Shown piece by piece: positions 34,331 through 35,430 of a stretch of DNA of 35,430 nt. The DNA comes from a virus, in UHGV virus genome UHGV-0309502; one strand, written 5' to 3'. The notes below the pieces were generated by a model that saw only the letters and a program-made list of their open reading frames with translations, was not told where the DNA came from and did not search any database. The stretch's first letter is position 1. Each line of letters begins with the position of its first letter. The translations under genes were made by a program, and so were the position numbers.

Positions 34331-34375
34331 AGCGCGCATAAAACAGGCAAAAACGGGATTTCAGAATCCCGTAAA
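34278..34375 (+). repeat. two copies of a 26-bp palindromic element (AAACGGGATT-caca/caga-AATCCCGTAAA)
   Basis: Copies at 34278-34303 (inside the A 3' end) and 34350-34375 (intergenic, upstream of the ParM-like ORF). Confidence 0.6.
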
Positions 34376-34406
34376 CGATTAATTAATCAACATAAGGAAA
34401 AGCGAC

Positions 34407-34808
34407 ATGAAAATTTGTATCGATGACGGCTCCACCAACATCAAGCTGGCATGGACTGAGAACGGCGAACGCCGCAACGCCATCAGCCCGAACAGCTTCA
34501 AGTCGGAATGGTCTGCGCCGTTCGGTGGCACGCAGCCCGCGAACTACATGCTTGATGGCGTGCGCTATGGTTTTGATCCGGTCAGCGATCGCTTTGTCCA
34601 GACAACTGACACGCAATACCAGTACAGCGATGTGAATGTCATTGCCATTCATCACGCGCTGGTCAAATCAGGCATCACGCCACAGGAGGTGGATGTGGTT
34701 GTCACCCTGCCACTGAGCGAGTATTTCGACACAAACGCACAGCCGGACATAGCCAACATCAACCGCAAAAAAAGCCCAGGATTCCCGGGGCGGTTCAGAG
34801 GAGAGTGA
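34407..34808 (+). pseudogene. ParM/StbA-family actin-like ATPase, N-terminal fragment only (133 codons)
   Basis: MKICIDDGSTNIKLAW...ISPNSFK.EW...QYSDVNV.A.HHAL closely parallels the recalled R1 ParM N-terminus; similarity ends after NRKK and the frame stops far short of the ~320 aa of a full ParM. Confidence 0.55.
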
Positions 34809-34810
34809 GA

Positions 34811-35302
34811 ATGCAAATTTCACCGGTTACTCTTCGTGTTGCGAAGGCGTTTATATCCAGACATCACCGACACAATAAACCCCCGGTGGGGCATAAATTC
34901 AGCATTGGTCTGAGAAATGATGCCGGAGAATTGATAGGTGTGGCGACAGCCGGTAGACCTGTTGCACGACATTTGGACGATGGATTAACGCTTGAAGTAA
35001 ATCGCACATGTACCACAGGAGAACGCAACGCTAACAGCGCACTTTATGGTGCTGTCTGGCGGGCAGCAAAGGCTATGGGTTATCAACGTTGTATTACGTA
35101 CACCCAGGCAGATGAATCAGGAGCATCTCTCCGCGCAGCTGGTTTTGTTCGTGTGAAAGAGCTTCCTCCAAGAAAAAGCTGGGCGGAATCAAGCGTCGCC
35201 CTGCGGAGTAAACGCGATCCGGTCGGAAACGGTGGTGTTCCTCGTGTGCTCTGGGAAATCAGGAGAATGAGTACCACTGGCATTCGCATCAAAGGAGAGT
35301 GA
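34811..35302 (+). CDS. hypothetical protein (163 aa)
   Basis: ORF frame 34805..35302; ATG at 34811 after AGAGGAGAG; basic His-rich N-terminus (ISRHHRHNKPP). May belong to the Mom/GNAT-like acyltransferase-fold group sometimes annotated XF1762 family; that is an unverified recollection. Confidence 0.45.
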   Translation: MQISPVTLRVAKAFISRHHRHNKPPVGHKFSIGLRNDAGELIGVATAGRPVARHLDDGLTLEVNRTCTTGERNANSALYGAVWRAAKAMGYQRCITYTQADESGASLRAAGFVRVKELPPRKSWAESSVALRSKRDPVGNGGVPRVLWEIRRMSTTGIRIKGE

Positions 35303-35303
35303 T

Positions 35304-35430
35304 ATGGCAACTTTGACAAAAAAAGAACAAGCATGGTTGAGCGAATTACAGGACGTTCTTGATCGCTGCCCATCACCGAAAAAAATTGGTTTTTACACCA
35401 TTGGCGATAAAAGCATTTACCTGTATGACC
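35304..35430 (+). CDS. hypothetical protein, 5'-partial (N-terminal 42 codons)
   Basis: ATG at 35304; runs off the window end; continues in frame into 3..137 if the ends are joined (about 87 aa in total). Confidence 0.4.
   Translation, partial: MATLTKKEQAWLSELQDVLDRCPSPKKIGFYTIGDKSIYLYD

What the first reader, a model, noticed from the sequence alone, without database searches (positions are those of the whole stretch)
34331..35430. Cargo island at the P2 tin/old hotspot position, with a truncated plasmid ParM gene and uncharacterised ORFs
The interval between replication gene A and the portal gene carries anti-phage cargo (tin, old) in P2. Here it holds an N-terminal ParM/StbA fragment of 133 codons (plasmid partition actin, cut off after NRKK), a 163-aa basic protein, a roughly 87-aa ORF spanning the window junction, and the 174-aa ORF at 724..1248 (reported separately). 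The ParM remnant points to past recombination with a plasmid or phage-plasmid. The intact ORFs are candidate defence or accessory genes.
Basis: partly seen in the sequence, partly recalled or inferred. Interest (0 to 1): 0.55.

Follow-up and report, generated by a model that had tools for sequence, protein, structure and literature searches.

The report
Insertion-sequence-scarred cargo island in P2-like prophage
This is the known variable cargo region of a P2-family E. coli prophage, in which a partition gene was destroyed by a deletion that left an insertion-sequence scar; next to it sit an intact, uncharacterised relative of the phage Mu DNA-modifying enzyme Mom and a small protein of unknown fold, so it is mostly ordinary.

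Summary
The window is a circular permutation of a P88-like (Xuanwuvirus, P2-family) E. coli prophage. The interval between replication gene A and the portal gene is the documented P2 hotspot.

The ParM reading is not supported. parM-parR is native cargo of this phage lineage. Phage PhiR44_2 carries the complete island: parM, parR, a ClpX zinc-finger gene, a 104-aa gene, XF1762, p87, a non-coding block, p174.

The window lacks about 1.6 kb of that island, from parM codon 123 to the end of the 104-aa gene. At the joint lie 22 nt that are the exact reverse complement of the outer left inverted repeat of an IS3-family element. The truncation is therefore an IS-associated deletion scar. It is neither a frameshift nor a recent plasmid recombination.

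The 163-aa basic protein belongs to the XF1762 family. Its predicted GNAT fold is closest to phage Mu Mom (PDB 8bv8). It keeps equivalents of Mom R111 and S124. It lacks R151, Y159 and the essential HTH-like insertion.

p87 gives a confident model with no match to any solved fold. No ORF matches a known defence model.

The genes run in the same direction as A, so early lytic accessory or counter-defence functions are more likely than prophage defence. Novelty is low to moderate.

The parts
31508..34330 (+). Replication gene A (940 aa). Left border of the hotspot.
   Evidence: Pfam Phage_GPA, E 3.9e-131. PGAP calls it 'replication endonuclease' in the 99.9% identical prophage.
34264..34378 (+). 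Two copies of a 42-nt direct repeat (34264-34305 and 34337-34378). Each holds the palindrome ACGGGATT-N4-AATCCCGT. Copy 1 lies in the last codons of A. Copy 2 lies in the spacer between A and parM.
   Evidence: There are only two copies in the window, and both are conserved in P88. Read in one frame, copy 2 gives KQAKTGFQNPVND*, which parallels the gpA C-terminus. It may be a scar of an alternative gpA 3' end, or a ParR/parC-type site. This was not resolved.
34407..34808 (+). parM pseudogene. ParM residues 1-122 are followed by 11 foreign codons and a stop.
   Evidence: StbA_N, E 1.8e-63. The DNA is 99.5% identical to PhiR44_2 parM up to 34772. No other ParM or ParR coding sequence exists in the window. 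PGAP annotates the same gene as a pseudogene.
34776..34797 (-). Scar of an IS3-family insertion sequence. These are the outer 22 nt of the left inverted repeat (TGAACCGCCCCGGGAATCCTGG when read on the minus strand). The outer end faces the XF1762 gene.
   Evidence: It matches 22/22 nt the sequence that lies 33 nt upstream of IS3-family transposase genes carrying the AL1L frameshift pseudoknot. That 22-mer occurs at 22,757 places in 3,556 of 5,426 E. coli genomes. The same end sequence follows an IS3 transposase in metagenome contig L094. Bases 34773-34775 (AGC) are unassigned.
34798..34810 (+). Last codons and stop of the lost 104-aa gene. The stretch includes the Shine-Dalgarno sequence GGAGAG for the XF1762 gene. 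It is one copy of a recurring gene-boundary repeat.
   Evidence: Alignment to PhiR44_2 positions 4001-4016. The same AGGAGAGTGA boundary recurs at 35291-35302.
34811..35302 (+). XF1762-family protein (163 aa, pI 10.9). A Mom-like GNAT-fold protein.
   Evidence: NCBIfam NF045478: 204.7 bits against a cut-off of 50. phrog_1384 'Mom-like', E 4e-42. Pfam Mom: 22.4 bits, below the cut-off of 27.1. AlphaFold2 pLDDT 86.7. Best PDB match is Mu Mom 8bv8, E 1.2e-8, TM 0.72-0.74. Profile alignment to Mom.
35304..35430 (+). 5' part (codons 1-42) of p87. The gene continues at window position 1.
   Evidence: phrog_1714, E 1e-50.
1..137 (+). 3' part of p87 (87 aa in total, pI 4.7, 42% GC). Function unknown and no known fold.
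172..192 (+). Terminator-like hairpin followed by a T-run. Probable end of the A-parM'-XF1762-p87 transcript.
184..652 (.). Conserved non-coding block shared with P88 relatives. It presumably contains cos.
   Evidence: 92-94% identical to P88 and pZ1323PEC0009-2, while both flanks differ. The P2 cos 19-mer itself is absent at up to 3 mismatches, so cos has not been located.
724..1248 (+). p174 (phrog_5091, function unknown). It lies on the portal side of the conserved block and is an insertion relative to P88.
   Evidence: Its protein WP_000236495 appears in the P2-hotspot gene arrangements listed in Rousset's supplement.
1263..2309 (-). Portal gene Q. Right border of the hotspot.
   Evidence: Pfam Phage_portal. 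PGAP annotation.

Best explanation
The interval is the cos-proximal variable region (gpA to gpQ) of a P88-like, P2-family E. coli prophage. It is a decayed copy of an island that is intact in relatives.

**Ancestral layout (shown).** As seen in phage PhiR44_2: A, parM, parR (Plasmid_stab_B), ClpX zinc-finger protein, 104-aa protein, XF1762, p87, terminator and conserved non-coding block, p174, Q.

**How the truncation arose.** An IS3-family element of the IS629/IS1203 type (name from memory) once sat immediately upstream of the XF1762 gene. Its left end faced that gene. A later deletion removed the rest of the element and everything back to parM codon 123. About 1.6 kb was lost: the 3' two-thirds of parM, parR, and the two following genes. 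Only 22 nt of the inverted repeat remain. The scar and the missing DNA are shown; the order of events is inferred.

**Consequence for partition.** The partition module is dead. It has no ParM nucleotide-binding half and no ParR.

**The surviving genes (shown).** XF1762 and p87 are intact. XF1762's start is coupled to the stop of the parM remnant by a GGAGAG Shine-Dalgarno sequence, and the p87 ATG lies 1 nt after the XF1762 stop. Versions of this module also occur in the early-left accessory region of lambdoid phages.

**Expression (inferred).** The genes are read through from the early lytic operon that contains A, and transcription ends at the hairpin at 172-192.

**Function (inferred).** XF1762 is a small basic GNAT-fold transferase and a sister of Mu Mom. 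It most likely transfers an acyl or aminoacyl group onto a nucleic acid early in lytic growth, serving phage counter-defence or host takeover. It is unlikely to protect the lysogen. The role of p87 is unknown.
For: **Lineage and ancestral island**
- Window 34001-34772 matches PhiR44_2 1626-2397. Window 34795-1400 matches PhiR44_2 4001-6036. Both are about 99.5% identical, and 1,603 bp are missing between them.
- The complete island is present in 52 of 5,426 complete E. coli genomes.

**IS scar**
- It is a 22/22 match to the outer left inverted repeat, which sits 33 nt upstream of IS3-family transposase genes.
- The same end lies next to an IS3 transposase in metagenome contig L094.

**Real deletion, not an artefact**
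- Only ParM residues 1-123 are found anywhere in the window.
- The same joint occurs in 12 genomes and 4 contigs.

**Hotspot and partition cargo already known**
- PMC9122126 main text and supplement.

**Link to lambdoid phages**
- In Kapi1, XF1762 lies between ea22 and xis.
- The triad of 104-aa gene, XF1762 and p87 occurs in 21 viral loci that have no P2 markers.

**XF1762 biochemistry**
- Family and fold.
- 29 of 40 diverse members hit Pfam Mom.
- hhalign against the Mom family gives E 2e-4 and pairs R65 with R111, N73 with N121 and S76 with S124.
- pI is 10.9.
- The domain is fused to C5 and N6A DNA methyltransferases and to polyvalent-protein domains in metagenomic proteins.

**Operon reading**
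- No promoter-like site in 34200-35430.
- Terminator-like hairpin at 172-192.
- P2 tin and old lie on the opposite strand from A.

**Defence models**
- No PADLOC hits.
Against: - No genome with an intact IS at this site or inside parM was found among 5,426 complete E. coli genomes. The pathway from insertion to scar is therefore reconstructed, not observed.
- Three bases (AGC, 34773-34775) and an extra A in the A-run are unexplained.
- A second deletion allele, in E. coli PO06021, ends only 4-7 nt away in parM and has no IS scar. The A-run may therefore be a break hotspot that is independent of the IS.
- The function of XF1762 is untested.
- Sequence similarity to Mom is remote: hhalign probability 46%, Pfam score below threshold.
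- Mom's essential R151 and its HTH-like insertion are missing. DNA may therefore not be the substrate.
- The promoter scan is a crude consensus scan, so absence of a hit does not prove co-transcription.
Confidence: 0.8

Rival explanations
1. The intact ORFs (XF1762, p87, p174) are prophage-encoded anti-phage defence genes. On this view they are expressed in the lysogen like P2 tin and old.
For: The locus is the validated P2 defence hotspot (PMC9122126). The ORFs are uncharacterised. p87 and p174 have lower GC than the genome. p174 is listed among the hotspot arrangements.
Against: None of the four proteins hits a PADLOC model. XF1762 and p87 run in the same direction as A and have no promoter-like site, whereas tin and old are antisense to A. 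The closest relative of XF1762 is a counter-defence enzyme, Mom. In lambdoid phages the same genes sit in the early-left lytic operon between recombination genes and xis. In Rousset's survey much of the hotspot content is not defence-related.
Confidence: 0.12
2. XF1762 and p87 form a toxin-antitoxin-like pair. The toxin would be a basic GNAT, as in TacT/AtaT, which acetylate charged tRNA. The small acidic protein would neutralise it.
For: XF1762 has a GNAT fold and pI 10.9. p87 has pI 4.7 and its ATG lies 1 nt after the XF1762 stop. Mom itself is toxic and uses charged tRNA (PMC7261163, PMC13219725).
Against: The two genes are separable. XF1762 is followed by unrelated genes in Kapi1 and many viral loci. 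p87 persists without XF1762 in 11 genomes. The gene order is the reverse of GNAT-RHH toxin-antitoxin systems. p87 has no RHH fold or any other known fold. No TacT-type structure appears among the top 50 fold matches. There are no PADLOC hits.
Confidence: 0.08
3. The ParM fragment is a trace of recent recombination with a plasmid or phage-plasmid, or is a frameshift artefact of a full-length gene.
For: ParM/StbA is a plasmid partition family. One P88-like genome is deposited as a 34.5-kb circular 'plasmid'.
Against: The fragment is 98-99.5% identical to parM of P88-like phages, where it is full length and paired with parR. True plasmid parM genes are only about 67% identical. The break carries an IS3 inverted-repeat scar. 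No downstream ParM coding sequence exists in any frame. The same joint is present in 16 independent assemblies.
Confidence: 0.03

Closest known systems
The gpA-gpQ (tin/old, cos-proximal) hotspot of P2-like phages (Rousset et al. 2022, PMC9122126)
   Same: It has the same flanking genes and the same position next to the packaging region. Its content varies between close relatives. StbA plus Plasmid_stab_B arrangements and the p174 protein WP_000236495 are already listed in that survey.
   Different: This copy has no recognisable defence system. Its genes run in the same direction as A, not antisense like tin and old. It is a decayed arrangement: the exact joint with XF1762 is present in only 1 of 5,426 complete E. 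coli genomes.
Type II partition system parMRC (plasmid R1 ParM/StbA) as carried by phage P88 and relatives
   Same: The N-terminal StbA_N domain is 99% identical to the ParM of P88-like phages.
   Different: Residues 123-319 of ParM and the whole of parR are deleted. The remnant cannot form the actin-like ATPase and has no adaptor protein. It is a pseudogene.
Phage Mu Mom (PDB 8bv8), the tRNA-Gly-dependent adenine N6 transferase (PMC13219725)
   Same: Mom is the best structural match for the predicted GNAT fold. Both proteins are basic. By profile alignment, equivalents of Mom H58, R111, N121 and S124 are conserved. Both are phage-borne.
   Different: Sequence identity is only 11%, and the Pfam score is below threshold. 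The protein is 78 residues shorter. It lacks the N-terminal basic arm and the HTH-like insertion that Mom needs. R151 is deleted in the alignment and Y159 is replaced by Leu. It sits in an early operon rather than in a late, Com-controlled one. Its activity is unknown.
IS3-family insertion sequences of the IS629/IS1203 type and the deletions they leave (name and behaviour from general knowledge)
   Same: The 22 nt at the joint are identical to the outer left inverted repeat of a 1,310-bp IS3-family element that is abundant in E. coli.
   Different: Only the terminal 22 nt remain. There is no transposase, no second end and no recognisable target duplication.
Accessory 'ea' genes of the lambdoid early-left (exo-xis) region
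   Same: XF1762 and p87 homologues lie between ea22-like genes and xis in lambdoid phages. They are separated by the same short conserved gene-boundary sequences.
   Different: Here the module has been transplanted behind gene A of a P2-family phage.

Membership tests
ParM/StbA actin-like partition ATPase | N-terminal StbA_N domain | tested here: met
   PF06406, E 1.8e-63. Protein residues 1-123 match profile positions 1-123 of 158.
ParM/StbA actin-like partition ATPase | Complete actin fold (C-terminal half, about 320 aa in total) | tested here: not met
   tblastn with the 319-aa ParM finds only residues 1-123 in the whole window.
ParM/StbA actin-like partition ATPase | Adjacent ParR adaptor gene (Plasmid_stab_B) | tested here: not met
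   It is present in P88 and PhiR44_2 and absent from the window.
P2-like gpA-gpQ variable hotspot | Lies between replication gene A and portal gene Q, with content that varies among relatives | tested here: met
   Flanking genes identified. At least four different arrangements seen in close relatives. Literature.
P2-like gpA-gpQ variable hotspot | Carries a recognisable anti-phage system | tested here: not met
   PADLOC gives no hit for any of the four proteins at E up to 0.1.
XF1762 family (NCBIfam NF045478) | Score above the curated cut-off | tested here: met
   204.7 bits against a cut-off of 50.
Mom family (Pfam PF25680; phage Mu Mom) | Score above the Pfam gathering threshold | tested here: not met
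   22.4 bits against 27.1. Only profile positions 3-124 of 202 are matched. 29 of 40 diverse relatives hit the model at E up to 0.01.
Mom family (Pfam PF25680; phage Mu Mom) | GNAT fold with Mom as nearest solved structure | tested here: met
   AlphaFold2 pLDDT 86.7. Foldseek top hits are 8bv8 chains B and A, E 1.2e-8, TM 0.72-0.74. This rests on a predicted model.
Mom family (Pfam PF25680; phage Mu Mom) | Catalytic R111 and S124 | tested here: met
   hhalign and a MAFFT merge both pair R65 with R111 and S76 with S124. R65 is invariant and S76 is at least 90% conserved across 40 diverse members. The alignment has modest confidence (probability 46%).
Mom family (Pfam PF25680; phage Mu Mom) | Essential R151, plus D149 and Y159 | tested here: not met
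   In hhalign R151 falls in a 4-residue gap, and Y159 pairs with L107. D149 pairs with D101, which is not conserved across the family. The MAFFT merge aligns this segment differently, so the register is uncertain. No register restores an Arg at the R151 position.
Mom family (Pfam PF25680; phage Mu Mom) | HTH-like insertion (Mom residues 175-209), required for activity | tested here: not met
   The corresponding place, between the last two strands, holds a 26-residue loop (119-144) containing only one 4-residue helix. Requirement taken from PMC13219725.
Mom family (Pfam PF25680; phage Mu Mom) | Glycyl-tRNA-dependent modification of adenine in DNA | not testable with these tools
   This needs nucleoside LC-MS or restriction-protection assays.
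IS3-family insertion sequence | Terminal inverted repeat | tested here: met
   22/22 nt identical to the outer left repeat of a 1,310-bp element with an IS3 transposase and an AL1L pseudoknot.
IS3-family insertion sequence | Transposase genes and a second end | tested here: not met
   Neither is present. Only the 22-nt scar remains.
GNAT-RHH toxin-antitoxin (TacAT/AtaRT type) | RHH antitoxin gene upstream of the GNAT toxin, with the two genes always paired | tested here: not met
   The order is reversed. p87 has no known fold. The two genes also occur apart.

The most novel reading that the evidence does not exclude
The XF1762 family would be a widespread 'mini-Mom'. It has about 3,800 clusters at 50% identity, spans phages of Proteobacteria, Actinobacteria and Cyanobacteria, and is sometimes fused to DNA methyltransferases. 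It keeps the Arg/Ser pair of the tRNA-dependent DNA transferase Mom but replaces Mom's DNA-binding insertion with its own conserved loop. On this reading it installs a different, still undescribed acyl or aminoacyl mark on DNA or RNA early in infection, as a counter-defence. p87 would be a new-fold partner or regulator.
Probability: 0.2. Interest if true: 0.65.

Novelty: new member of a known kind. Interest (0 to 1): 0.25.

Why it matters
As an island it matters little. It is one decayed arrangement among the many already catalogued at the P2 hotspot, and public annotation already marks the parM pseudogene.

Two points have some value.
- It shows concretely how hotspot cargo is lost. An insertion-sequence scar marks one deletion. 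A 10-nt gene-boundary repeat is the site where the XF1762 gene drops out in sister prophages.
- It flags XF1762 as a large, untested sister family of Mom. Mom's unusual chemistry, using glycyl-tRNA as donor onto DNA adenine, was only recently solved. XF1762 keeps half of Mom's active site but lacks its DNA-binding insertion, which makes it a reasonable target for finding a new nucleic-acid modification.

Tried and rejected
- **PADLOC on all four proteins.** No hits.
- **Sequence searches of the PDB** with XF1762 alone and as a profile. Nothing significant. Only the fold search found Mom.
- **hhalign with the shallow alignment A2.** It aligned only the N-terminal half, with E 0.01 to 9e-4. The deeper alignment A6 was needed.
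- **Structure prediction of the junction-spanning p87.** A 99% identical homologue was used instead.
- **P2 cos 19-mer.** Absent at up to 3 mismatches, and there is no similarity to the P2 right end. cos has not been located.
- **First reading of the 22-bp filler.** I first took it for the 3' end of a variant ea22-like gene, because of weak resemblance to Kapi1. I dropped this when exact-match scans led to an IS3 end.
- **Search for an intermediate** with an intact IS next to XF1762 or p87, or inside parM. None found in 5,426 genomes or in the species-representative genomes.
- **Rfam and tRNA scans of the window.** Nothing found.
- **Com/methyltransferase module** seen in a sister element. Not present in this window.
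- **Literature search for 'XF1762'.** No papers.
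Full report
**1. Observation**

- Gene A is 31508..34330, with Pfam Phage_GPA at E 3.9e-131.
- A 133-codon ORF at 34407..34808 matches the ParM N-terminal domain StbA_N over residues 1-123, E 1.8e-63.
- A 163-aa ORF runs from the ATG at 34811 to the stop at 35302. Its pI is 10.87.
- An 87-codon ORF starts at 35304, runs off the window end and closes at position 137 when the window is circularised.
- The 174-aa ORF is at 724..1248.
- The portal gene is 1263..2309 on the minus strand.

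The circular join is genuine. A prophage in E. coli strain 190693 is 99.9% identical and contiguous from window 34001 to 1400. Phage PhiR44_2 is contiguous there too.

**2. What the element is**

The closest phages are P88 and its relatives (genus Xuanwuvirus, family Peduoviridae), which are P2-like coliphages. The region between gpA and gpQ is the cos-proximal hotspot described by Rousset et al. 2022. They counted 1,650 gene arrangements in 18,150 occurrences, and P2 itself carries tin and old there (P2 annotation).

**3. The ancestral island and the ParM remnant**

P88 carries a full 319-aa parM followed by a Plasmid_stab_B ParR-type gene.

Phage PhiR44_2 carries the complete arrangement: A, parM, parR, a ClpX zinc-finger protein, a 104-aa protein, XF1762, p87, a non-coding block, p174, Q. 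At least 80% of that stretch is present in 52 of 5,426 complete E. coli genomes. parM-parR followed by other cargo is much commoner.

[quoted passage not shown] True plasmid parM genes are only about 67% identical in DNA. The few 95-98% matches in the plasmid collection include a whole P88-like genome deposited as a 34.5-kb circle. parM is therefore native cargo of this phage lineage and not evidence of a recent plasmid encounter.

**4. The breakpoint**

Against PhiR44_2, window 34001-34772 aligns to 1626-2397 and window 34795 onward aligns to 4001 onward. Both are about 99.5% identical, and 1,603 bp are missing between them. ParM identity stops at K122. No other ParM or ParR coding sequence exists in the window in any frame, so this is not a frameshift.

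Exact-match scans with the joint sequence led to a metagenome contig. There the same sequence directly follows an IS3-family transposase that has the ALIL frameshift pseudoknot.

In E. coli, the reverse complement of window 34776-34797 is TGAACCGCCCCGGGAATCCTGG. It occurs at 22,757 places in 3,556 of 5,426 genomes. It lies 33 nt upstream of IS3-family transposase genes, as the outer end of a 1,310-bp element. From memory this is the IS629/IS1203 type. The annotation says only 'IS3 family'.

The match to the left repeat is 22/22 nt, against 18/22 for the right repeat. The outer end of the scar abuts GAGGAGAGTGA, which is the last codons of the lost 104-aa gene and the Shine-Dalgarno sequence of XF1762.

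I infer that an IS inserted just upstream of XF1762. A later deletion then removed the IS body and everything back to parM codon 123.

No intermediate with an intact IS was found. Three bases (AGC) and one extra A remain unassigned.

The same parM-scar joint is present in 12 complete genomes. Only one of them still has XF1762. In the other 11, and in two metagenome contigs, XF1762 is missing exactly between two copies of the boundary repeat AGGAGAGTGA.

A different allele, in E. coli PO06021, fuses ParM 1-124 in frame to the 104-aa protein at an AACG microhomology. Its left end lies only 4-7 nt from the window's left end. I cannot explain that coincidence.

**5. The 163-aa protein**

*Family and fold.*
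- It scores 204.7 bits on NCBIfam NF045478 'XF1762 family', against a cut-off of 50.
- It matches PHROG 1384 'Mom-like DNA modification protein' at E 4e-42.
- It scores 22.4 bits on Pfam Mom, below the threshold of 27.1, and only over the N-terminal two-thirds of the profile.
- The AlphaFold2 model has pLDDT 86.7 and a GNAT topology.
- Its best PDB matches are the two chains of Mu Mom (8bv8), at E 1.2e-8 and TM 0.72-0.74. Ordinary GNAT acetyltransferases follow.

*What Mom is.* Mom transfers glycine from Gly-tRNA to adenine N6 in DNA. It needs R111, S124, D149, R151 and an HTH-like insertion at residues 175-209 (PMC13219725).

*Size and conservation of the family.* The XF1762 family has 3,834 representatives at 50% identity with E up to 1e-3. 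Its invariant or near-invariant residues are H19, R20, H21, G48-R49-P50, R53, T60, E62, R65, N73, S76, T96, Y97, E102, G104, S106, W124 and W148.

*Alignment to Mom.* The profile-profile comparison gives E 2e-4 and probability 46%. It pairs H19 with H58, R65 with R111, N73 with N121, S76 with S124, and D101-E102 with D149-E150. R151 falls in a gap and L107 sits at the Y159 position. A MAFFT merge agrees for the N-terminal pairs. The HTH-like insertion is replaced by a 26-residue conserved loop.

*Membership.* The protein shares Mom's fold and half of its active site but fails several defining features. I file it under XF1762, as a sister family of Mom, and not as a Mom.

*Hints to function.*
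- The protein is strongly basic.
- In metagenomic proteins the domain is fused to a C5 DNA methylase, a D12 N6-adenine methylase, and the YodL and LPD28 polyvalent-protein domains.
- Homologues occur in only 32 of 50,697 phage records, but the hosts range from E. coli to Mycobacterium, Burkholderia, Synechococcus and Pelagibacter.
- No paper mentions the family name.

**6. p87 and p174**

p87 is acidic (pI 4.7) and has 42% GC, against 52.7% for the genome.

p174 belongs to PHROG 5091 and has unknown function. It is an insertion relative to P88, on the portal side of a conserved 469-bp non-coding block.

**7. Context and likely expression**

In lambdoid phages such as Kapi1, XF1762 lies in the early-left accessory region between an ea22-like gene and xis. 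Among the 80 best viral loci, the triad of 104-aa gene, XF1762 and p87 occurs 21 times without P2 markers and about 10 times inside P2-like hotspots. XF1762 is also followed by other genes in many loci. XF1762 and p87 are therefore separable modules.

In the window they run in the same direction as A. No sigma-70-like site is found in 34200-35430. A hairpin with a T-run follows p87 at 172-192. By contrast, P2 tin and old are antisense to A and have their own promoter.

I infer early lytic expression by read-through from A. That fits counter-defence or host takeover better than lysogen-expressed immunity. None of the four proteins hits a PADLOC model.

**8. Rivals**

- Prophage defence genes: about 0.12.
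- A reversed GNAT toxin with a small acidic antitoxin: about 0.08. This is weakened by the separability of the two genes and by p87 lacking an RHH fold.

**9. Verdict**

The island is a decayed member of a known hotspot, and public annotation already flags the pseudogene.

Two things here were not already in the public annotation or papers I consulted. One is the IS3 scar, which explains the ParM truncation. The other is the residue-level comparison placing XF1762 as a 'mini-Mom' that keeps the R111 and S124 equivalents but lacks R151 and the DNA-binding insertion.

Interest is low to moderate.

Noticed in passing
window 34264-34305 and 34337-34378: A 42-nt direct repeat (81% identity) straddles the stop codon of gene A. 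Each copy has an 8-bp-stem palindrome, ACGGGATT-N4-AATCCCGT. The second copy reads KQAKTGFQNPVND* in one frame, mirroring the gpA C-terminus. It could be a scar of an alternative gpA end or a ParR/parC-type site. There are only two copies, and both are also present in P88.
   Followed up: partly
window 34798-34813 and 35291-35306: A gene-boundary repeat, A(A/G)AGGAGAGTGA followed by 1-2 nt and ATG, links successive cargo genes. XF1762 is missing exactly between the two copies in 11 complete E. coli genomes and 2 metagenome contigs.
   Followed up: yes
L003 4440-4660 (E. coli PO06021): A second, IS-free deletion allele fuses ParM 1-124 in frame to residue 36 of the 104-aa protein at an AACG microhomology. 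Its left end lies only 4-7 nt from the window's breakpoint, just after the A-run. The coincidence is unexplained.
   Followed up: partly
L097 (NZ_CP148288.1, 1-34461): A complete P88-like phage genome with intact parM-parR and an integrase is deposited as a circular 34.5-kb 'plasmid'. This is in line with the published conjecture that the partition genes allow episomal maintenance. It also carries a Com-regulator plus DNA methyltransferase pair that is absent from this window.
   Followed up: partly
window 184-652: A 469-bp non-coding block is conserved (92-94%) with P88 relatives, while both flanks vary. It holds several hairpins. The P2 cos 19-mer is not present at up to 3 mismatches, so the cos of this lineage differs and was not located.
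   Followed up: partly
proteins P0433, P0386, P0434, P0436, P0443 (representatives): The XF1762 domain is found fused to a C5 cytosine DNA methylase, a D12 N6-adenine DNA methylase, the YodL and LPD28 polyvalent-protein domains, DUF6884 and a recombinase domain in metagenomic proteins.
   Followed up: partly
window 35304-35430 joined to 1-137: p87 gives a high-confidence AlphaFold model (pLDDT 91) with no match to any solved structure. It is restricted to Enterobacterales and has 42% GC.
   Followed up: yes
window 653-1287: The p174 gene with its flanks replaces only 21 bp of P88. It is a separate insertion on the portal side of the conserved block. It is followed by a hairpin at 1254-1274, which lies between its stop codon and the stop codon of the convergent portal gene.
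   Followed up: no
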